A stretch of DNA of 64,000 nucleotides from Acidimicrobiales bacterium (GCA_036279475.1 DASUJB010000147.1:1070-65069), one strand, 5' to 3'. Shown: positions 37,153 to 44,879, counted from the stretch's first letter. A program made the numbers and translations. The notes: generated by a model not told the origin, from the sequence alone.

Positions 37153-38040
37153 TCAACCTCCTGCCGGCGCCGGTGCCGGCGCGTTCCGGTGCTGGGCGGC
37201 TCGCTGGTCTCGCCGGTGCAGCATGACGCACAGCAAACCGACCATCATCCCGGAACCGGTGGTGATGAGGGCGGCGGGGAGCCGCCGCTGCCCGATGTCA
37301 CGCTCGAGGATGACCGAGATGGTCTGTGCATCCTCGTCCGCCTCGGGCGGAGGGGCGGGCTGGCCGGGCTCGGGCTCCCCCTGCTCACGGGCCGGCTTCA
37401 GTTGGACGATCGCGTAGTGGGGCGGGTGGGTCACGCGCAGGGTGTTGGTGATGCGGTTCGTGACCCGGTCGATGACGGCGTCGCTCTCCCGCTCCGGCTT
37501 CCCGCCCGTCTCGAACGCGTAGGTGAACACCCGGCTGTTGGCGTCCTCCAGCCCGGGGACGGCCCCCTCGGCCAGGAGGGCGTCCACCGCCGTCTGCGCC
37601 TCGCCCCGGGAGGCGTCCGACGCGTCCAGCAGCTTCCAGTCACCCAGGTCGTCGTCATGCTCCTCGGTGACCCGCTCCAGCTCCTCCGGCGACAGCTCGT
37701 CGATCTTCGACGGCGGCGGGAGCGAGGACGGGTCCAGCTCGTGGGCCTCGTCCAGGGTGGAGTTGTCGAGGTCGCCGTAGACGATCTCGGTGACCTCCCA
37801 GGCCGGGGCCCGCCCGGCCGGCCCCTGCCCCGGCGGGTACAGCCACCACACCGTGCCGTGGATGGTGAGCCAGGCGAAGACGCCCGTCAGCGCCACCAGG
37901 AAGCCCAGCCGGTGGGCGAGGTTGGTGGCGAGCAGCAGGTACACCGAGCCCATCAGCACCAGGACGCCGGTGGCCACGGCCAGGATGCCGCGGATCTGCG
38001 GGTCCCAGGCGATGCCGGCCAGGGTGGTGACGATGTGCAC
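37153..38040 (-). CDS. membrane protein of unknown function, last gene of the Rieske/cyt b operon
   Basis: 295 aa. The GTG at 38040 lies 1 nt after the cytochrome c stop. It has three N-terminal TM helices, an acidic ~170-aa soluble region and one C-terminal TM helix. I recognise no domain. Confidence 0.6.
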   Translation of the reverse strand: MHIVTTLAGIAWDPQIRGILAVATGVLVLMGSVYLLLATNLAHRLGFLVALTGVFAWLTIHGTVWWLYPPGQGPAGRAPAWEVTEIVYGDLDNSTLDEAHELDPSSLPPPSKIDELSPEELERVTEEHDDDLGDWKLLDASDASRGEAQTAVDALLAEGAVPGLEDANSRVFTYAFETGGKPERESDAVIDRVTNRITNTLRVTHPPHYAIVQLKPAREQGEPEPGQPAPPPEADEDAQTISVILERDIGQRRLPAALITTGSGMMVGLLCVMLHRRDQRAAQHRNAPAPAPAGG

Positions 38041-38041
38041 G

Positions 38042-39283
38042 TCAGCCCTCTTCCTTCTCGAGCTGGGCCTGGATCTGGCTGACCGAGGGTGCCCCCTTGG
38101 GGTTGGGCGTCTCCGAGGCGGGCAGGGTGGCCTCGTAGCGGGCGATGGCCGCCACCATCTCCGGGGTCAGCATGCCGTCCCCCTCCACCTCCTCGGTGTT
38201 GGGGTTGTCGGCGAACCCGGGCATCCGGCCGCTGCCGATCCCGTTGTTGCCGTACGGCTCCCCGTCGATGCTGCCCTGGGACACGAAGCCCACCAGCTCC
38301 GTGTAGTCGGCGAACTGCCGGGGGATGAGGCCGCCCGTCAGGTTGGGGCCGAGGGCACCACTGCCATCGGGGAACCCGACGTACACGCCCTCGAGGGGGG
38401 CGTCCGGCGGCTGCACCACGTCCTCCCCCGTGCGGATGATCGACCAGCCCCGGGTGTGGCAACGGGCGCAGGCGAAGGCGCCACCCGAGGTCTCCAGGTT
38501 GAACAGCGTCCGGCCCACCTGGGGGTCGTCGTAGTCGAGGCCCTTGATGGCGGCGTCCATCTCGGCCTTGCTCGCTCCCTCGTCGACCAGCCCGAGCTGC
38601 TCGACCAAGCCTTCCTCGGCCTCACGCTGTGCCTGGGCCGGCGACAGCTGGATGGACTCGAGGTAGTCGACGAGGTTGCTGACCTGCTGCTCGTTGAGCG
38701 GGCCCTTGTTGACCGATGCGCCCCATCCCGCCATCGGCGAGAACGGGCGGCCGTAGTTGATGATGTACTCCACCTCGTCGCGCGAGAAGCGGAGCAGCAC
38801 CGTGTCGAGGGCGGGTGCCCGCCAGGTGACGGTGGCGACGAACTCCCCGTCAGCGTTGGTGACGGTGTACGGCGCCTGGCCGCCCGTGCCCTCGGGGCCG
38901 TGGCAGTTCTGGCACTGGGAGCCGGTGACGTACAGCTCCTCGCCCCGGCTGGCGAACACGCGCTCGAAGTTCTCGACGGCCCCCGACTGCCGGCCCGGCT
39001 CGGCCAGCCAGTAGAGCGGTAGCGCCACGGCGATGACGACGAGGAGCACGAGGGCCCACCGCAGCGTGCGGTTGAGCACGGTCGTCTCGAGCGTCTCGTC
39101 GTCGTGGTAGGGCCTCCGGTTGGGAGCGAGCTCGATCTCCGAGCCGGTCTCCGGGCGGCCGGCGCGGAGGTTTGCCACCACGTACGCCAACAACCCGAGG
39201 AGGAGCAGCACCACCAGCGTGGCGCCGATCGTCGTGACCGTGCTGGCTGCCAGCACGGCCGGCGAGATGGACAGGGGGCTCAT
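38042..39283 (-). CDS. membrane-anchored di-haem c-type cytochrome
   Basis: ORF 38042..39766 trimmed to the ATG at 39283, giving 413 aa. It overlaps the Rieske stop as ATGA. It has two N-terminal TM helices and two haem-c motifs, CQNCH and CARCH. Confidence 0.85.
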   Translation of the reverse strand: MSPLSISPAVLAASTVTTIGATLVVLLLLGLLAYVVANLRAGRPETGSEIELAPNRRPYHDDETLETTVLNRTLRWALVLLVVIAVALPLYWLAEPGRQSGAVENFERVFASRGEELYVTGSQCQNCHGPEGTGGQAPYTVTNADGEFVATVTWRAPALDTVLLRFSRDEVEYIINYGRPFSPMAGWGASVNKGPLNEQQVSNLVDYLESIQLSPAQAQREAEEGLVEQLGLVDEGASKAEMDAAIKGLDYDDPQVGRTLFNLETSGGAFACARCHTRGWSIIRTGEDVVQPPDAPLEGVYVGFPDGSGALGPNLTGGLIPRQFADYTELVGFVSQGSIDGEPYGNNGIGSGRMPGFADNPNTEEVEGDGMLTPEMVAAIARYEATLPASETPNPKGAPSVSQIQAQLEKEEG

Positions 39284-40146
39284 CAGTGGCCGCCGCCTCC
39301 AGAGACGCAGTGGGGGCCCTCGGCCTCTTGGCCGGTGGTGTTGGTACCGATCGGCGGGCCCTCGACGATGGTGCCCGTGTCGACCGTGAACTGGCCGCCG
39401 TTCACCTCCATGGCGAAGCGGTCCATGCCTCGCGGCGCCGGTCCGCCCTTCTTCTCGCCGACGCGGTTGTACTGCGAGCCGTGGCAGCCGCACTCGAACC
39501 ACTGCGAGGACAGGCACTGGGGCACCCGGCAGCCGAGGTGGGGGCACTTTTGGTACAGGGCCACCAGGCCCGCCTCCATGCCCGCCAGCTCTGGCGGGGA
39601 GTAGACGGACCTCGCCTTGTCCAGGGCGTCCGCCGGGTACCGGGTCACCCACATGCGGCCCTCCGGGTAGTAGGCGAACCCGTCGCCCTCGTCGATGGCG
39701 GCCTCGATGTCGGTGATCTTGCCGACGTTGATCTTGGTGCCGAACCCGCCCACCCCGCTGGGCCACAGGAAGGCGAGGACACCGGCACCGAAGCCGGAGA
39801 TCCCCAGGAGGAACGACACGACGATCGACCGGTTGAAGAACTGCCGCCGCGTCACCCCCAGCGTCTCCTCGTCCGGGGGCACCCAGGCGACGGGTGGCTC
39901 GCCCGCCCTCGCCGGTGCCGACGACTCGCGGCGGGCCACGACGGCGGCGCGCTCGACCTCGCGACCGCTGGCCGGCCGGTCCTCCTCCGACAGCTCGACG
40001 GGCCCGCGGTCACGGCGGGCCGTCTCGCTGGACAGGACGCCCCGGGCGGCGCCGGTGTCGCGCCGACGGGCCGAGGCCAGCAGCAGCACGCCGGCCAGGA
40101 CGACGAGGACGGGGACGGCGATGAGGATGATCGTCGTTGGACTCAT
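39283..40146 (-). CDS. Rieske [2Fe-2S] subunit of a Rieske/cytochrome b complex
   Basis: 287 aa with the cluster boxes CPHLGC and CGCHGS. It has an internal twin-arginine motif (TRRQFFNRS) before the second TM helix and an extra N-terminal TM helix. Confidence 0.9.
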   Translation of the reverse strand: MSPTTIILIAVPVLVVLAGVLLLASARRRDTGAARGVLSSETARRDRGPVELSEEDRPASGREVERAAVVARRESSAPARAGEPPVAWVPPDEETLGVTRRQFFNRSIVVSFLLGISGFGAGVLAFLWPSGVGGFGTKINVGKITDIEAAIDEGDGFAYYPEGRMWVTRYPADALDKARSVYSPPELAGMEAGLVALYQKCPHLGCRVPQCLSSQWFECGCHGSQYNRVGEKKGGPAPRGMDRFAMEVNGGQFTVDTGTIVEGPPIGTNTTGQEAEGPHCVSGGGGH

Positions 40147-40164: not shown

Positions 40165-40947
40165 TCAGAGCTCGAAGAACAGCCCGGCGTTCCAGGGGAA
40201 CACGAAGTTCTGGCCGGGACCCCGGAAGAACGAGCCGATCATCACGAGGGTCGCCCACGCCATCAGGAAGATGGTGAACAGCGAGATGGCGAACTTGCGG
40301 TCCTCGGGCTTGTTGGACGGGTTGCGATCCGTGTACGGCGTGAGGACCAGGCCGATCAGGCCGAAGCCCGGCAGCGTCACGCCCGCGACCATGGGGTGGA
40401 ACATGGTCAGCATCTCCTGCAGGCCGAGGAAGTACCACGGGGCCTTGGAGGGGTTCGGCGTCTCGTTGATGTTGGCCAGCGCCAGCAGGGGAGCGTTGAC
40501 GAACACCGAGAAGAGCAGGAGGAAGGCGGTGATGGCCAGCGCCGCCACGAACTCGATGCTGAGGAGGTGGGGCCAGACGTGGACCTTGTCCTGGGGGACC
40601 GCCTTCACGTCCTGGATCGACCCGGACTTGACCACGGTCAGGAGGCGCTGGGTGTGGCCGCCGGGACCGGTGGCCACCGGCGGGGCGGCGACGGCGGGAG
40701 CGGCCGTCGCCACGGCGGTGGCGGCGCCGCCACCGCCGGACGAGCTGGCGCCGCCGGCCTTGGCCGCCTTGGACCGCTCGAGGAGGTGGGCCGGGATGCG
40801 GCTCGCCGCCTCGCTCGTGGCGCCGGTCTCGCCCGCGCCGCCGGTCTCGCTGGCCGCCGGGGTGCCGGCGCCGCCGGCCTTGGCCGCCGCCGCCTTCTTG
40901 CGGGCCTCCTCGGCCCGCTTGCGGAGATGTTCGGGGATCTCGGTCAC
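40165..40947 (-). CDS. cytochrome b C-terminal domain protein (b6f subunit IV / PetD-like) with a ~110-aa N-terminal extension
   Basis: 260 aa, GTG start at 40947. The C-terminal 150 aa align by eye with subunit IV (VWPHLL..., NPSKAPWYFLGLQE). The N-terminus carries two IP(E/A)HL...AAKAGGA modules. Confidence 0.85.
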   Translation of the reverse strand: MTEIPEHLRKRAEEARKKAAAAKAGGAGTPAASETGGAGETGATSEAASRIPAHLLERSKAAKAGGASSSGGGGAATAVATAAPAVAAPPVATGPGGHTQRLLTVVKSGSIQDVKAVPQDKVHVWPHLLSIEFVAALAITAFLLLFSVFVNAPLLALANINETPNPSKAPWYFLGLQEMLTMFHPMVAGVTLPGFGLIGLVLTPYTDRNPSNKPEDRKFAISLFTIFLMAWATLVMIGSFFRGPGQNFVFPWNAGLFFEL

Positions 40948-40963
40948 GTCGCCTACCTGGTCT

Positions 40964-41755
40964 CTACAGCGGCCCGGAGATGCCGCCGTCCTTGCGGACC
41001 CGCCAGAAGTGGACGGCCATGAAGATCACGATGACGAAGGGCAGCATCAGCACGTGGAGCACGTACCAGCGGAGGAGCGTGTCCGTGCCGATCTCGGCCC
41101 CGCCCAGCAGCACGAAGCGGACCTGGTTCCCGAACACGGGGGTGTACCCCATCATGTTGGTGCCCACGGTGACCGCCCACAGGGCGAGCTGGTCCCACGG
41201 CAGCAGGTAGCCGGTGAACGACAGCAGCAGGGTGAGCGTGAGGAGGACCACGCCGATCACCCAGTTGAACTCCCGCGGTGGCTTGTAGGCGCCGTGGTAG
41301 AAGACGCGTGCCATGTGCAGGAACACGGAGATCACCATCAGGTGCGCCGCCCACCTGTGCATGTTTCGCACCAGCAGCCCGAAGGTGACGGAGGTCTGCA
41401 GCGTGTAGATGTCGTCCCACGCCTGGGCAGCCGTGGGCCGGTAGAAGAACATCAGGAAGATGCCCGTGACCGTGAGCAGGATGAACAGGAAGAAGCTCAG
41501 GCCGCCCAGGCAGAGCGTGTAGCTCACCTTCACCGCGTGCCTCTTCACCTTCACCGGGTGGAGGTGGTAGAGGACGCTGTTCATGATCACGTAGGACCGG
41601 TTCCTGGGGCTGTCGTTGTAGCCCTTGCGGAAGATCGAGCCCGGACGGAAGATCGAGTTCCACGCCTGTGAGCCCTGGACCTGGTCGGGCAGGCCCTTGA
41701 CGAACTGTTGCGCCCGGTCCCTCAGCGGCGGCTTGGATTCCATGGTCTTGGCCAA
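40964..41755 (-). CDS. cytochrome b6-type protein (cytochrome b N-terminal four-helix domain)
   Basis: 263 aa. The TTG at 41755 lies 5 nt after GGAGA. Haem-b histidine pairs are present ([40 protein letters not shown]). The segment YTLCLGG...FFYRPT aligns with the b6 haem-ci cysteine segment. Confidence 0.9.
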
Positions 41756-41765
41756 CTGGGGTCTC

Positions 41766-42182
41766 CTATCCCAACCGCATGCCGTAGCCGTACCCGTGGC
41801 TGCTGGTGCGCTGGTGGGCGTCGCCGGTGGCGGCGGGGTCCCCCACCTTGCCGAGGATGATCACGCCCGTGGGGCACCGGTCGACGCACAGGGCGCAGCG
41901 GGTGCAGACGTCGTCGTCGATGGTGAAGATGACGTGGTCGGACGGATCGATGCCCGGCTGGTCGACGCCCAGCGCCTCGTCGACCGCGTCGGGCGACACC
42001 ATGTGGATGCACTTCCACGGGCAGATGTCGACGCAGCCCTCGCACATGATGCACTCGGACTGGTCGATGTGGATGAACTGCTTCGGCTTGACCGCCTTCG
42101 ACAGCCAGCCCGCGTCGACCTCCTGGAGGACGTAGTCGTCGCGGAACTCGGGCATCGGTGGGTTGGCATCGACCTTGGCCAT
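41766..42182 (-). CDS. soluble 2x[4Fe-4S] ferredoxin-domain protein inside the Rieske/cyt b operon
   Basis: ORF 41766..42455 trimmed to the ATG at 42182, which follows GAGGAAGGG, giving 138 aa. It has the motifs [12 protein letters not shown] and [12 protein letters not shown], and no TM helix or signal peptide. Confidence 0.8.
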
Positions 42183-42184
42183 GC

Positions 42185-42598
42185 CTATCCCTTCCTCACC
42201 AGGGGCCGGCCGTAGCGCGACGCGGGGATCTCGGCCGGCTTCTTCTTCCCCCGGTCGTTCCACACGGCCCACAGCGTGATGTGCAGCGTCAGCCCCACGC
42301 CGTAGATCACGACGGCGACGACGTCGGCGAGCGTCTTGTAGCTGATGGTGAGCGGCTGGTTGCCCGTCGGCTCGGCGATGAGGCGGTCGGACCGCCAGCC
42401 GAGCTGTCCCTCGGCCCATTGGAGCCACTGGTGGGGGATCACCCCGTACCACCACAGGAAGAGGAACATCGTCACCAGGGCGGCTGCCATCGCCTCGCCC
42501 CAGGACAGGGGGGCACCCGCCGGGCGGCGCCGGCCGTAGGCGAGGACACCGGCGACACCGCCGAAGCCCACAAGGATGGTGCAGATGAAGGCGACCAA
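42185..42598 (-). CDS. small three-TM membrane protein of unknown function, first gene of the Rieske/cyt b operon
   Basis: This is the frame of ORF 42185..42661. I prefer the TTG at 42598 (137 aa, GAGGAG upstream) because a Rex-like palindrome lies at 42615-42632. The GTG at 42661 is the alternative. The stop lies 2 nt before the ferredoxin ATG. Confidence 0.5.
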   Translation of the reverse strand: MVAFICTILVGFGGVAGVLAYGRRRPAGAPLSWGEAMAAALVTMFLFLWWYGVIPHQWLQWAEGQLGWRSDRLIAEPTGNQPLTISYKTLADVVAVVIYGVGLTLHITLWAVWNDRGKKKPAEIPASRYGRPLVRKG

Positions 42599-42614
42599 GG
42601 GACCTAGCGACTCC

Positions 42615-42632
42615 TCGTGAAATCGCTCACAT
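42615..42632. promoter_or_regulatory. candidate Rex operator (ROP-like palindrome) in front of the Rieske/cyt b-nuo transcription unit
   Basis: TCGTGAAATCGCTCACAT matches TTGTGAA-N4-TTCACAA at 11 of 14 specified positions by my alignment. A further TGTGAAC half-site lies on the minus strand at about 42692-42698. The region is the divergent intergenic between the operon and the cytochrome c gene. Confidence 0.4.
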
Positions 42633-42809
42633 TGAAGCAGCCGCCCATGGGGACCGGCCACCTCGGCAGGTTTAGCACGGGCCTTCCGAGGCGTTCACAT
42701 TGGCGCCGGGCACCGGGACGGGCCGCCGACCTGCACTTCCGGGAGCTTGGTGGCGACCGACGGCGCATGCGTAGAGTGGCCGATCGGAGAGCCGTCCGCG
42801 GAGGCAGCG

Positions 42810-43568
42810 TTGACCGAGATCCCCGAGCACCTTCTCAAGCGCTCCCGCGAGCGCCGCGCCGCCGTGGGCCGGGGCGGCGACACCCCCGAGGAGAGCTCGA
42901 GCGGGGCCGGCGGTCCGTCCCCGACGGCGCCCGCCCCCGGCGCCGGCGTGGCGCCCGCCGCCGTCCCACCCCCCGCCGTGGAGGAGGCGCCCGCCCCTCC
43001 GCCCCCCGAGCCCGCCTACGTGCAGGCGGCCCGTCGACGCAAGCGGGTGCCCTACTGGGCCACGGCGGCCCTCGCCATCCTGCCGCTGTGGGGCTACGTC
43101 TACGTGCGGACCCTCGAGCCCCCGCCGGCCGGCGAGGACGACCCGCTCACCCTGGGCGGCGAGGTGTACTCCGGCAACTGCGCCTCGTGCCACGGTGCCA
43201 CCGGTGGCGGGGGCGCCGGCGCCCAGCTCTCCGACGGCGAGGTGACGGCCAACTGGCCGGACTGGCGGGACCAGGCGGCATGGGTCCGCCTCGGCTCCGC
43301 CGACTACCCCGCGCCCACCTACGGCGCCCTCGACAGGCCCACCGGCGGCCTCGGGACCATGCCGGCCTGGCCCACGCTCACCGACCAGCAGATCGCCGAG
43401 GTCGTCCTGTACGAGCGGTCGCTGGCCGGTGACGAGGACGTGACCGAGGCCAACCCCGACTACGAGGAGCTCTACGCGGTGGCACGCGGAGAGACGACCC
43501 TCGCCGAGGTGGGCCTCGGTCCCCTGTCGGAGGCAGCCGGCGTGACCGAGGACCAGCTGGGCGGCTGA
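42810..43568 (+). CDS. membrane-anchored mono-haem class I c-type cytochrome
   Basis: ORF 42747..43568 trimmed to the TTG at 42810, which lies 5 nt after GGAGG (42800-42804), giving 252 aa. It has the N-terminal TEIPEHLLKRS motif, one TM helix (VPYWATAALAILPLWGYVYV) and the haem motif CASCH. Confidence 0.8.
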   Translation: MTEIPEHLLKRSRERRAAVGRGGDTPEESSSGAGGPSPTAPAPGAGVAPAAVPPPAVEEAPAPPPPEPAYVQAARRRKRVPYWATAALAILPLWGYVYVRTLEPPPAGEDDPLTLGGEVYSGNCASCHGATGGGGAGAQLSDGEVTANWPDWRDQAAWVRLGSADYPAPTYGALDRPTGGLGTMPAWPTLTDQQIAEVVLYERSLAGDEDVTEANPDYEELYAVARGETTLAEVGLGPLSEAAGVTEDQLGG

Positions 43569-43613: not shown

Positions 43614-44879
43614 ATGAGCCAGCCGCACCGGCACGACGTCCTTGTCATCGGCGGCGGGCCGGCCGGAGCGGCGGCCGGCTTCTGGCTGGCCAAGGCCGGC
43701 CGTGACGTCTGCGTCGTCGAGCGCAAGTCCTTCCCCCGGGACAAGACCTGCGGTGACGGGCTGACCCCCCGGGCCGTCCACCAGCTGCGCGCCATGGGGT
43801 TGGAGGCCGCCATCGCCGCCCGGCACCACCGCCACGACGGCCTGCGGGCCGTCGCCCACGGCATCACCCTCGAGCTGCCCTGGCCCGAGCACCCCGTGTT
43901 CCCCGACTACGGCTACGTGGTGCGCCGCCGCGACCTGGACCAGTTGGTGGCGGAGCACGCCGCCGGAGCGGGCGCCACCGTCCTCACCGCCACCGAGGCG
44001 GTGAGGCCACTGCTGCACGACGGCCTGCTGACGGGCGCGCTGGTGAAGCACGCGACCAGTGGCGACGTTCGCCCGCTGCGCGCCCGCTACGTCATCGTCG
44101 CCGACGGCTCGCTCTCGCGGTTCGGGCGGGCCCTGGGCGCGGCCCGGAACAAGGCCTACCCGCAGGGCATCGCCATCCGCACCTACTTCGAGAGCCCTCG
44201 CTCCACCGACCCCTGGATCGAGTCGTGCCTCGACGTCCGGGATCGGGACGGGGCGTCGATGCCCGGCTACGGCTGGATCTTCCCCTTGGGCGACGGCACC
44301 ATCAACGTGGGCATCGGCCTCCTGTCCACGTTCAAGGGCTACAAGGACGTCAACACCACCCACCTCATGGGGGAGTGGGCCGCCACCGCCCCCCGGCGCT
44401 GGGGCATCGACCCCGACGCCATGCTGGCCCCCCCCACCGGCGGCCGCCTCCCCATGGCCGGATCGGTGAACCCCAAGGCCGGGCCCAACTGGCTGCTCGT
44501 CGGGGACGCCGCCGGCTCGATCAACCCGTTCAACGGCGAGGGCATCGACTACGCCTACGAGACCGCTCACCTGGCGGCCGAGCTGGTGGACGAGGCGCTG
44601 GCCGCCGGTACCGGTGCCCCCCTCCAGCGCTACACCACCCTGCTCGACGAGGAGTACGGGCTCTACTTCAGGGTGGCCCGGAACTTCGCCCGCATCATCG
44701 GCCAACCGGCGCTGATGCGGGAGCTCACCCGCGTCGGCATGCGATCCCGCTCGCTCATGGAGTGGGTCCTGCGCATCATGGCCAACCTGCTGCGCGACGA
44801 CGAGCTGGGGCCGGCCGAGGCCGCCTACCGGTCCGTCGCCCGCCTCGCCCGGCTGGTGCCCGAGCCCGTCCCGTCCTGA
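43614..44879 (+). CDS. geranylgeranyl reductase family FAD-dependent oxidoreductase (MenJ-like menaquinone side-chain reductase candidate)
   Basis: 421 aa, with VLVIGGGPAGAAAG, KTCGDGLTP and GDAAGSINPFNGEGI. Confidence 0.8.
   Translation: MSQPHRHDVLVIGGGPAGAAAGFWLAKAGRDVCVVERKSFPRDKTCGDGLTPRAVHQLRAMGLEAAIAARHHRHDGLRAVAHGITLELPWPEHPVFPDYGYVVRRRDLDQLVAEHAAGAGATVLTATEAVRPLLHDGLLTGALVKHATSGDVRPLRARYVIVADGSLSRFGRALGAARNKAYPQGIAIRTYFESPRSTDPWIESCLDVRDRDGASMPGYGWIFPLGDGTINVGIGLLSTFKGYKDVNTTHLMGEWAATAPRRWGIDPDAMLAPPTGGRLPMAGSVNPKAGPNWLLVGDAAGSINPFNGEGIDYAYETAHLAAELVDEALAAGTGAPLQRYTTLLDEEYGLYFRVARNFARIIGQPALMRELTRVGMRSRSLMEWVLRIMANLLRDDELGPAEAAYRSVARLARLVPEPVPS

What the first reader, a model, noticed from the sequence alone, without database searches (positions are those of the whole stretch)
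40749..42863. Shared N-terminal cytoplasmic motif TEIPEHL(L/R)KR on two respiratory membrane proteins, duplicated in one of them
The subunit IV-like protein begins (GTG at 40947) with MTEIPEHLRKRAEEARKKAAAAKAGGAG. About 50 residues later it carries a second module, RIPAHLLERSKAAKAGGAS (around 40749-40800).

The divergently transcribed mono-haem cytochrome c begins (TTG at 42810, good GGAGG ribosome-binding site) with MTEIPEHLLKRSRERRAAVG.

At the DNA level the two starts share ACCGAGATCCCCGA exactly. In both proteins the motif is followed by a low-complexity Ala/Gly/Pro linker and then a TM helix, so it should sit on the cytoplasmic face.

I know of no function for it. It might be a common docking, targeting or assembly tag that ties the cytochrome c to the b6 complex or to a cytoplasmic partner such as the ferredoxin or a complex I peripheral arm.
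Basis: seen in the sequence. Interest (0 to 1): 0.6.

Follow-up and report, generated by a model that had tools for sequence, protein, structure and literature searches.

The report
Shared N-terminal tail peptide, Acidimicrobiia respiration
Two respiratory membrane proteins of an Acidimicrobiales bacterium, subunit IV of a b6-type quinol oxidase complex and a membrane-anchored cytochrome c, start with the same undescribed ~18-residue cytoplasmic peptide, which is kept almost unchanged across the class Acidimicrobiia and probably docks both proteins to one still unknown partner.

Summary
The core IP[EA]HL[LR][KE]R occurs three times in the window and nowhere else, with 0 expected by chance. It sits at the N-terminus of subunit IV (SUIV), again at SUIV residue 51, and at the N-terminus of the divergently transcribed mono-haem cytochrome c.

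The window is an Acidimicrobiales MAG. The motif is near-invariant in 120 + 120 homologues, while the Ala/Gly/Pro linkers around it vary freely. Synonymous codons also vary freely, so selection acts on the protein.

AlphaFold2 models each copy as a short helix in a disordered cytoplasmic tail that precedes a TM helix.

A DNA scan of species genomes found the motif in about 110 Acidimicrobiia loci with the same gene order. In 14 large records (38 Mb) it occurs only at this locus.

A profile search of 1.84 billion proteins gave 561 hits. These are mostly the same two families, plus about 20 unrelated carriers with 2–8 copies.

No Pfam, NCBIfam, PDB or literature entry describes the motif.

Best reading: a portable, helix-forming docking peptide for a shared cytoplasmic partner. 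That partner is unidentified. The acidic 2[4Fe-4S] ferredoxin encoded in the operon is my lead candidate, by inference only. The motif also resembles the FtsZ C-terminal peptide, which I could not test.

The parts
40165..40947 (-). Subunit IV-like protein (SUIV) of the b6-type complex, 260 aa. A 124-residue cytoplasmic N-terminal tail is followed by three TM helices.
   Evidence: Pfam PF00032 at 34.7 bits against a 20.7 cut-off, on residues 158-239. 100 % identical to the NCBI protein P0121, 'menaquinol-cytochrome c reductase cytochrome b subunit [Acidimicrobiales bacterium]'. TM segments at 128-146, 185-203 and 219-237.
40888..40944 (-). Motif copy 1 in SUIV, residues 2-20: TEIPEHLRKRAEEARKKAA.
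   Evidence: Core hit. Present in 120/120 homologues. AF2 helix at residues 6-24, pLDDT 65-73.
40807..40887 (-). Hypervariable Ala/Gly/Pro/Ser linker between the two SUIV copies, residues 21-47.
   Evidence: Length and sequence vary among homologues of 73-100 % identity. pLDDT < 50 at residues 25-49.
40756..40806 (-). Motif copy 2 in SUIV, residues 48-64: ASRIPAHLLERSKAAKA.
   Evidence: Core hit. Among 66 copy-2 instances picked by the His-containing regex, I 65/66 and P, L, L, R 66/66, with free synonymous change. His is replaced in 16 of 83 SUIV genes. AF2 helix at residues 53-65.
40576..40755 (-). Remainder of the SUIV tail: a second variable linker, then the conserved juxtamembrane segment GPGGHTQRLLTVVKSGSIQDVKA..VHVWPHLL.
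   Evidence: Invariant columns G94-L129 in alignment A4.
42800..42812 (+). Ribosome-binding site GGAGG (42800-42804) and TTG start codon (42810-42812) of the cytochrome c gene.
   Evidence: Sequence. Homologues start at the same residue, with GTG in 48, TTG in 16 and ATG in 2.
42810..43568 (+). Membrane-anchored mono-haem class I cytochrome c, 252 aa.
   Evidence: Pfam PF00034 and PF13442. CASCH at residues 124-128, coordinates 43179-43193. AF2 mean pLDDT 80, TM helix 82-102, haem domain 112-250 with pLDDT > 90 over most of it. Foldseek returns only weak generic cytochrome c matches, none with E <= 0.001.
42813..42863 (+). Motif copy in cytochrome c, residues 2-18: TEIPEHLLKRSRERRAA.
   Evidence: Core hit. 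Present in 114 of 120 homologues at 55-100 % identity; the exceptions are truncated or alternatively called starts and one H-to-P variant. AF2 helix at residues 6-18.
42864..43052 (+). Cytochrome c cytoplasmic linker. It is hypervariable and Ala/Pro/Gly-rich, and ends in the basic juxtamembrane stretch RRRKR.
   Evidence: pLDDT < 50 at residues 22-51. Sequence variability among homologues.
43053..43115 (+). Signal-anchor TM helix of cytochrome c, residues 82-102.
   Evidence: AF2 helix 82-102, pLDDT about 80. RRRKR lies before it and acidic residues after it.
41766..42182 (-). Context and candidate partner: a soluble, acidic 2x[4Fe-4S] ferredoxin-like protein (138 aa, pI 4.6) encoded directly upstream of cyt b6.
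   Evidence: Pfam Fer4 families. pI 4.6, with 22 acidic and 11 basic residues. Present in all 91 loci that hold both cyt b6 and memb158, at 65-94 % identity. Its role as partner is inference only.
40964..41755 (-). Context: cytochrome b6 of the same complex. It carries a ~56-residue N-terminal extension relative to the NCBIfam model.
   Evidence: Pfam PF00033 at 156.9 bits. NCBIfam ExtP at 310 bits against a 290 cut-off, aligned from residue 57.

Best explanation
**What it is**
- A short linear motif, [ST]-x-I-P-x-H-L-L-x-R-[SA]-x-x-A-[RK].
- A short extended I-P is followed by a basic helix of 13-19 residues.
- It sits at the very start of intrinsically disordered cytoplasmic tails, and is sometimes repeated within them.

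**Where it is**
- In Acidimicrobiia it marks two products of one conserved respiratory gene cluster.
- SUIV of a b6c-type menaquinol:cytochrome c reductase carries two copies.
- A membrane-anchored mono-haem cytochrome c, transcribed divergently from the same promoter region, carries one copy.

**How it most likely works**
- The helix presents one conserved face (I0, H3, L4, R7, S/A8, A/R11, K/R12, A/L15) to a groove on a common cytoplasmic partner.
- The flexible linkers let the peptide reach that partner from the membrane.
- This would hold the periplasmic electron carrier and the quinol oxidase at the same place, or assemble both around the same cytoplasmic subunit.

**Shown versus inferred**
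- Shown: the motif is real, translated, selected at the protein level, helical in models, cytoplasmic by topology, conserved across the class, and modular.
- Inferred: that it is a docking ligand.
- More weakly inferred: that the partner is the acidic, TM-less 2[4Fe-4S] ferredoxin subunit encoded in the operon.
For: **More than chance**
- Three copies in the window against 0 expected.

**Conservation**
- Near-invariant in 120 cytochrome c and 120 SUIV homologues, while the flanking linkers change in length and sequence.
- Codons vary freely at invariant residues, including Ser AGY versus TCN.
- P0257, from a 46 % GC organism, starts with 19 residues identical to the 72 % GC window's SUIV.

**Structure and topology**
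- AF2 gives helices at residues 6-24 and 53-65 (SUIV) and 6-18 (cytochrome c). The linkers have pLDDT < 50 and are followed by TM helices.
- Conserved positions follow an i, i+3/4, i+7/8, i+11 spacing, so they fall on one helix face.

**Distribution**
- The gene order FADred<-cyt c | memb158-Fd-cyt b6-SUIV-Rieske-dihaem c-memb295-nuoA-nuoB is the same in about 110 Acidimicrobiia loci.
- Within those loci the motif occurs only in SUIV (154 copies) and cytochrome c (68 copies).
- In 14 large records totalling 38 Mb, the only pattern matches are at this locus.

**Modularity**
- The profile search gave 561 hits at E <= 1e-3. Among the best 150, the motif lies within the first 8 residues in 135, and 90 have more than one copy.
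- About 20 of them have unrelated C-terminal parts.
- Lineages without the cytochrome c gene carry the cytochrome c-type variant on SUIV.

**Candidate partner**
- The ferredoxin is acidic (pI 4.6), has no TM helix, and is in all 91 loci that hold both cyt b6 and memb158.
Against: - No partner was identified and no interaction was tested. AF2 was run on single chains only.
- The extra carriers lie in unrelated gene neighbourhoods with no recurrent neighbour. This argues against a partner specific to the b6c complex, at least in those organisms.
- The operon of ExtP/ExtQ, the closest curated relatives of cyt b6 and SUIV, also includes a ferredoxin according to my recollection of that literature (not checked here). 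ExtQ has no such tail. A ferredoxin subunit therefore would not need this peptide.
- His is dispensable in the second SUIV copy in 16 of 83 genes.
Confidence: 0.5

Rival explanations
1. The tails bind each other. The two SUIV helices and the one cytochrome c helix form a small helical bundle on the cytoplasmic face. This tethers the cytochrome c directly to the b6c complex without any third protein.
For: - All copies are helical in models and share an Ala/Leu-rich face.
- The typical complement is two copies plus one.
- Where the cytochrome c gene is absent, SUIV carries the cytochrome c-type variant, as if that slot had to be filled.
Against: - The helices are strongly basic with few hydrophobic residues, so self-association would be repulsive.
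- AF2 does not pack SUIV copies 1 and 2 together with any confidence.
- Proteins with a single copy and soluble carriers also exist.
Confidence: 0.13
2. The peptide binds anionic membrane lipids such as cardiolipin, or another polyanion such as nucleic acid, by electrostatics. This would concentrate the carriers in one membrane domain.
For: - Basic residues follow the core (KRSRERR, RKRAEEARKK, ERSKAAKA).
- Copy number of 1-8 suggests avidity.
- Many carriers are membrane proteins with N-in tails.
Against: - Invariant Ile-Pro, Leu-Leu and (in first copies) His point to stereospecific recognition rather than charge alone.
- The hydrophobic face is mostly Ala, with no aromatic residues, unlike known membrane-targeting helices.
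Confidence: 0.1
3. The peptide is a regulatory or processing signal rather than a tether. It could be a Ser/Thr phosphorylation site at position -2, a degron, or a co-translational targeting signal read as soon as the N-terminus leaves the ribosome.
For: - The first copy is at the extreme N-terminus in 135 of the best 150 profile hits.
- Thr or Ser occupies position -2 in most copies.
- Precedent: the n-side N-terminus of chloroplast PetD is phosphorylated at Thr4 and is needed for b6f function (PMC13287000).
Against: - Internal and C-terminal copies exist (P0250, SUIV copy 2).
- Conservation extends over about 18 residues, longer than a kinase site.
- No kinase or protease gene is linked to the cluster.
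Confidence: 0.12
4. The peptide mimics the FtsZ C-terminal peptide and binds SepF or another receptor of the FtsZ tail, linking respiratory proteins to the division or cytoskeletal hub.
For: - String resemblance: E-I-P-E-H-L-R-K-R-A in SUIV against D-I-P-A-F-L-R-K-Q-A in E. coli FtsZ. Other FtsZ tails read DIPTFLR, DVPPFMR and DDLDVPSFLQ.
- Both motifs lie at the end of a hypervariable disordered linker (PMC7118173).
- One lineage has VPAFLLERS, with Phe at the matching position.
Against: - The Phe that defines the FtsZ peptide is His here.
- Internal copies have Arg or Lys where FtsZ has Asp.
- The motif is N-terminal, not C-terminal.
- The motif profile did not retrieve FtsZ from the PDB at E <= 10 or among the best 150 library hits.
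- No ftsZ or sepF was available to compare.
Confidence: 0.06
5. The conservation is at the nucleotide level, for example a shared translational or sRNA target at the 5' ends of the two genes. Alternatively the match is a chance or gene-calling artefact.
For: - The two starts share 15 identical bases.
- Both genes use non-ATG starts in this window.
Against: - Third codon positions vary freely across species while the residues stay fixed. Ser uses both AGY and TCN, and Leu uses five codons.
- The motif persists from 43 % to 73 % GC.
- Chance expectation is 0.00.
- Internal copies exist.
Confidence: 0.02

Closest known systems
FtsZ C-terminal peptide (CTP/CTD 'landing pad', D-[IV]-P-x-F-[LM]-R-[KR])
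   Same: - A short conserved peptide at the end of a hypervariable disordered linker.
- An [IV]-P followed by a hydrophobic pair and then basic residues.
- It can form a short helix.
- It acts as a docking ligand for several partners (PMC7118173).
   Different: - Here the peptide is N-terminal, on respiratory membrane proteins.
- His replaces the defining Phe.
- The helix continues for 13-19 basic residues.
- It is often repeated.
- No partner is known.
N-terminus of chloroplast PetD (subunit IV of cytochrome b6f)
   Same: - The same subunit family and the same n-side location.
- A conserved extreme N-terminus with a Thr that matters for function and regulation (PMC13287000).
   Different: - PetD has only a few residues before the first helix.
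- It has no 124-residue tail and no IPxHLL sequence.
- Nothing in it is shared with a cytochrome c.
Membrane-anchored cytochromes c that shuttle between complex III and oxidase (for example Rhodobacter cytochrome c_y)
   Same: - A mono-haem class I domain on an N-terminal TM anchor with a flexible linker.
- Weak fold match to 6xkw_p, at E = 1.6.
- A role as a tethered electron carrier is plausible.
   Different: As far as I recall, those proteins have only a short cytoplasmic N-terminus. Here an 80-residue cytoplasmic tail carries a peptide that is also found on SUIV.
ExtP/ExtQ-type and Firmicute-type split b6 / subunit IV complexes
   Same: - Cyt b6 reaches the NCBIfam ExtP cut-off (310 bits against 290).
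- SUIV aligns to ExtQ over residues 125-252.
   Different: - The ExtQ model is 134 positions long and has no N-terminal tail.
- SUIV scores 49 bits against a 150 cut-off, so it is not an ExtQ equivalog.
- The first 56 residues of cyt b6 lie outside the ExtP model, which aligns from residue 57.
- The SUIV tail, the cytochrome c tail and this cyt b6 N-terminal stretch all lie outside the curated models.
Eukaryotic SxIP motif ([ST]-x-[IL]-P in basic disordered regions, binds EB1)
   Same: The copies read T-E-I-P, S-R-I-P and S-K-I-P in a basic disordered context. This resemblance is recalled from memory only.
   Different: SxIP is eukaryotic and not helical, its partner EB1 is absent from bacteria, and it lacks the HLLxR continuation. 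Most probably a coincidence.

Membership tests
Cytochrome b6f subunit IV / PetD family (host protein at 40165-40947) | Match to Pfam PF00032 above the gathering score | tested here: met
   34.7 bits against a 20.7 cut-off, residues 158-239.
Class I c-type cytochrome (host protein at 42810-43568) | CXXCH haem-binding site and a Pfam PF00034/PF13442 match | tested here: met
   CASCH at residues 124-128. PF00034 at 36.8 bits and PF13442 at 35.5 bits. The haem domain is modelled confidently.
Any curated domain or family covering the motif itself (Pfam-A, NCBIfam, PDB sequences) | A significant profile match over the N-terminal 20-30 residues | tested here: not met
   No family covers the tails of SUIV or cytochrome c, or of ten other carriers. 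The best PDB hit has E = 0.33 and is a chance PcrA segment. No paper contains the motif strings.
FtsZ C-terminal peptide | Conserved Phe two residues after the Pro (D-[IV]-P-x-F-[LM]) | tested here: not met
   His in every first copy examined, both in the pattern-independent homologue sets and in 83 SUIV and 66 cytochrome c first copies from the loci. His, Glu, Ala, Ser or Asp in second copies. Phe in only one lineage.
FtsZ C-terminal peptide | Position at the C-terminal end of FtsZ, after a disordered linker | tested here: not met
   The motif is at the N-terminus of non-FtsZ proteins. The disordered linker is present, but on the other side.
FtsZ C-terminal peptide | Binds SepF, FtsA or ZipA-type receptors | not testable with these tools
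   No ftsZ or sepF in any held sequence, and no complex prediction is available.
Tat (twin-arginine) signal peptide | [ST]-R-R-x-F-L-K followed directly by a hydrophobic h-region and an AxA site | tested here: not met
   Only the cytochrome c variant has RR (RERRAALG). It is followed by a charged Ala/Pro/Gly linker of about 60 residues before the TM helix. SUIV copies lack RR.
NCBIfam ExtQ (membrane partner of ExtP) | Score at or above the curated cut-off of 150 bits | tested here: not met
   49 bits. The neighbouring cyt b6 does pass the ExtP cut-off, at 310 bits against 290.
ParA/MinD-activating N-terminal peptides | Extreme N-terminal basic peptide together with a cognate ParA-like ATPase gene | tested here: inconclusive
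   N-terminal position and basic character are met. No ParA-like gene appears among the conserved cluster genes, but genomes were not searched for one.

The most novel reading that the evidence does not exclude
Acidimicrobiia use a dedicated peptide 'address tag'. One cytoplasmic receptor, such as the operon's ferredoxin subunit or a hub protein comparable to SepF, reads the same N-terminal helix on SUIV and on a periplasmic-facing cytochrome c. It thereby organises the quinol oxidase and its electron carrier from the cytoplasmic side, and possibly complex I, which is encoded in the same superoperon. Some lineages have then reused the tag on other proteins. This would be a new way of assembling or regulating a respiratory supercomplex.
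Probability: 0.15. Interest if true: 0.8.

Novelty: new variant of a known kind. Interest (0 to 1): 0.55.

Why it matters
**What is unusual**
- A periplasmic electron carrier and a core subunit of its reductase share a strictly conserved cytoplasmic peptide.
- This implies that assembly, tethering or regulation of this respiratory chain is coordinated from the cytoplasmic face. No such arrangement has been described for bc/b6f-type complexes, as far as Pfam, NCBIfam, the PDB and the searched literature show.

**Why it is tractable**
- The motif is an 18-residue peptide.
- It is present in cultured strains: Iamia majanohamensis, Aquihabitans sp. G128 and Salinilacustrithrix flava.
- Acidimicrobiia are abundant in soil, freshwater, marine and wastewater habitats, and their respiratory complexes are unstudied.

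**Practical uses**
- The motif is a clean sequence marker for the class.
- It exposed several mislabelled MAG contigs.

Tried and rejected
- **Chance or low complexity: rejected.** 0 expected against 3 found.
- **Downstream true start: rejected.** The amino acids are conserved while the codons change.
- **RNA or DNA-level element: rejected**, on the same evidence.
- **Known domain: none found.** Pfam, NCBIfam and PDB sequence searches gave nothing.
- **Literature search for the motif strings:** 0 papers.
- **Phage origin: rejected.** 1 match in 2.9 million viral contigs.
- **Membrane-binding amphipathic helix: judged unlikely.** The hydrophobic face is mostly Ala and has no aromatic residues.
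- **Tat signal: rejected**, because there is no h-region.
- **memb158 as receptor: considered and not favoured.** A memb158-like gene sits next to the 8-copy protein P0342. However, its cytoplasmic loop and tail, as I infer the topology from its TM segments and charge distribution, are basic like the motif (sequence and pI 9.7).
- **Third homologue search (P0241 family):** swamped by SUIV through the motif, so it gave little.
- **Neighbourhoods of seven other carriers:** no recurrent neighbour.
- **My own error:** an off-by-one in the ferredoxin coordinates (41766-42183) gave a wrong frame and an empty Pfam result. It was corrected to 41766-42182.
- **Taxonomy of the lower-GC carriers:** could not be determined.

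Full report
**Observation**

The window has 72 % G+C. A six-frame scan for IP[EA]HL[LR][KE]R finds three hits and no others:
- 40915-40938 (-)
- 40774-40797 (-)
- 42819-42842 (+)

The degenerate DNA pattern gives the same three sites, with 0.00 expected in 100 shuffles.

The first two hits lie in the subunit IV-like protein, SUIV (40165-40947, -). It starts at GTG 40947, 17 nt after the stop codon of cyt b6, with AGGTAGG in between.

The third hit is at the start of a mono-haem cytochrome c (42810-43568, +). It starts at TTG 42810, preceded by GGAGG at 42800-42804.

The NCBI proteins for both genes have exactly these starts and come from an Acidimicrobiales MAG.

**Gene context**

On the minus strand the genes run as follows:
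- a 158-aa membrane protein (memb158)
- a soluble, acidic 2[4Fe-4S] ferredoxin (41766-42182, pI 4.6)
- cytochrome b6 (NCBIfam ExtP, 310 bits against a 290 cut-off)
- SUIV
- a Rieske protein
- a dihaem cytochrome c
- a 295-aa membrane protein (memb295)
- nuoA, nuoB and the rest of complex I

The cytochrome c gene diverges from memb158 and is followed by a geranylgeranyl-reductase-like flavoprotein.

tblastn shows this order in about 110 loci retrieved from species genomes.

**Selection**

- In 120 cytochrome c homologues (55-100 % identity), the N-terminus reads (M/L/V)TE[IV]PEHLL[KRQ]RSRERRAA. The exceptions are truncated or alternatively called starts and one H-to-P variant. The next ~50 residues vary freely.
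- In 120 SUIV homologues both copies are kept, MTEIPEHLRKRAEEAR.KA and SRIPAHLLERS[KR]AAKA. The linkers between them change in length and composition.
- In loci from organisms of 52-73 % GC, invariant residues are encoded by many synonymous codons. Leu uses five codons and Ser uses both AGY and TCN.
- The second SUIV copy was not part of the DNA search pattern. Among 66 copies picked by a regex that requires Pro, His and an Arg-like residue, it shows I 65/66 and L, L, R 66/66.
- Selection is therefore on the peptide, and the annotated starts are right.
- In a wider set, 16 of 83 SUIV genes have a second copy without His (RIPAELLERS, RIPDAMLDRT, VPAFLLERS). The minimal core is therefore IPxxLLxR[ST].

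**Anatomy**

- SUIV model: mean pLDDT 52, from a shallow alignment. Helices at residues 6-24 and 53-65, with linkers below pLDDT 50.
- Cytochrome c model: mean pLDDT 80. Helix at 6-18, disordered at 22-51, TM helix at 82-102, and a confident haem domain. The haem domain gives only weak, generic cytochrome c fold matches.
- Basic residues precede each first TM helix, and the haem domain must lie outside the cell. All three copies are therefore cytoplasmic. This rests on the positive-inside rule and the known topology of b6f subunit IV.
- Conserved positions 0, 1, 3, 4, 7, 8, 11, 12 and 15 fall on one face of a helix.

**Distribution**

A 30-position profile of the motif was searched against 1.84 billion representative proteins. 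It gave 561 hits at E <= 1e-3 and 57 at E <= 1e-10. Among the best 150:
- 135 have the motif within the first 8 residues.
- 90 have two or more copies.
- 45 contain the SUIV or cytochrome c core.
- Most of the rest are contig-end fragments or frameshifted copies of those two families.
- About 20 are credible independent carriers.

The independent carriers include:
- a ~300-aa soluble family with 2-3 copies (P0241, P0282, P0377; alignment)
- small single-pass membrane proteins (P0243 with four copies)
- P0250, with four C-terminal copies
- a TIR-domain protein (P0269)
- P0342, with eight extended copies in front of a TM domain

The TM part of P0342 weakly resembles memb295 (E = 6e-9). Its gene sits next to a memb158-like gene.

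The carriers I could fetch come from DNA of 43-66 % GC, with heterogeneous neighbours.

- 81 matches were in SUIV and 61 in cytochrome c.
- Nearly all came from Acidimicrobiia, including Aquihabitans sp. G128 and Salinilacustrithrix flava.
- Hits in other phyla were in wrong frames, or in one case in EF-G.
- Contigs labelled Bifidobacterium or Acidobacteria carry the Acidimicrobiia operon.
- Iamia majanohamensis SUIV also has both copies.

In 14 large records totalling 38 Mb, six of them 3.3-6.3 Mb, the only matches are at this locus. In typical genomes the tag therefore seems confined to SUIV and cytochrome c. This assumes that the scan lists every match in a record; two records did yield two loci each.

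Two loci lack the cytochrome c gene altogether. Their SUIV starts with the cytochrome c-type variant, HLLQRSKERRKALGLP.

**Mechanism**

The features are those of a short linear docking motif:
- a short, strictly conserved peptide
- helical propensity
- disordered linkers of free sequence
- variable copy number
- transfer between unrelated proteins

I therefore commit to a peptide ligand that binds a common cytoplasmic partner. It would bring the quinol oxidase subunit and its membrane-anchored electron carrier to the same site.

The partner is not identified. The ferredoxin encoded in the operon is the only soluble cytoplasmic product of the b6c part of the cluster. It is acidic where the peptide is basic, has no membrane anchor of its own, and is present in all 91 loci that hold both cyt b6 and memb158. 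It is my first candidate, by inference only.

The rival explanations are tail-tail bundling, lipid or polyanion binding, a regulatory or targeting signal, and mimicry of the FtsZ tail. A nucleotide-level element is excluded.

**Comparison with what is known**

- The nearest functional analogue is the FtsZ C-terminal peptide (DIPAFLRKQ, DIPTFLR, DVPPFMR, DDLDVPSFLQ). It also ends a variable disordered linker and docks several partners.
- The motif fails that family's defining features: His replaces Phe, and it is N-terminal on other proteins. This is a resemblance and not membership.
- The chloroplast PetD N-terminus is a precedent for a functional n-side N-terminus of subunit IV.
- No Pfam, NCBIfam or PDB entry and no paper in the searched library describes the motif.

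**Verdict**

The feature is real, strongly selected and class-wide, and I found no prior description of it. Its general nature as a cytoplasmic docking peptide is well supported. Its partner and physiological role remain open and can be tested directly in cultured strains.

Noticed in passing
window 8110-37127 (-): Two complex I-like gene sets lie in tandem downstream of the b6c cluster. One runs nuoA to nuoN (37127 to about 21029) and includes NuoE/F/G-sized genes. A second set (about 18.6 to 8.1 kb) has NuoC, H, I, K, L, M and N-like genes (Pfam). The b6c-nuoA-nuoB junction is conserved in about 30 loci.
   Followed up: partly
window 42185-42661 (-) and 37153-38040 (-): Two membrane proteins with no Pfam or NCBIfam match (memb158 and memb295) are conserved members of the cluster, seen in 91 and 44 loci. 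In locus L124 a memb158-like gene directly precedes a memb295-like protein (P0342) carrying eight N-terminal motif repeats.
   Followed up: partly
L124 668-2524 (P0342): Here the motif is the first half of a longer ~30-residue unit, IPEHLLRRSAEAKAKAxGxxVEEVLAEL. This looks like a helix-turn-helix hairpin, is repeated eight times, and matches no Pfam family.
   Followed up: no
L004 and L011: In these lineages the mono-haem cytochrome c gene is missing. The flavoprotein gene diverges directly from memb158, with about 110 bp between them. SUIV starts with the cytochrome c-type variant of the motif.
   Followed up: partly
window 40964-41755 (-): Cyt b6 passes the NCBIfam cut-off for ExtP, 'selenite/tellurite reduction operon b-type cytochrome' (310 bits against 290). 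In this respiratory context that name is probably misleading. The protein has a ~56-residue N-terminal extension outside the model. It also keeps the Cys of the CLGG segment, which binds haem ci in b6f complexes (sequence; the assignment is from general knowledge).
   Followed up: no
window 39283-40146 (-): The Rieske protein has an extra N-terminal TM helix. This is followed by a cytoplasmic loop of about 85 residues that ends in a Tat-like TRRQFFNRS just before the second TM helix.
   Followed up: no
L031, L045, L050, L073, L080, L081, L098, L101, L078: MAG contigs labelled Bifidobacterium or Acidobacteria carry the typical Acidimicrobiia b6c operon with the motif. One cytochrome c homologue (P0035) is likewise named 'Thermoanaerobacterales bacterium' by NCBI. 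These are likely binning or labelling errors.
   Followed up: partly
L043 5226-5254 (-): EF-G of a Limnocylindria MAG contains TEIPEHLKERAKDALQELIE in its G' region. This is a chance look-alike of the motif in a translation factor.
   Followed up: no
L001 10556-11275 (+): The gene next to the four-copy carrier P0243 begins with a diverged copy, MPDNIPPHLRKQVRDQ. The motif has therefore spread locally in that 50 % GC organism.
   Followed up: no
window 43614-44879 (+): A geranylgeranyl-reductase-like FAD protein follows the cytochrome c gene after 45 nt, and is seen beside the cluster in 49 loci. From general knowledge it may be a MenJ-like menaquinone side-chain reductase. This was not tested.
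   Followed up: no
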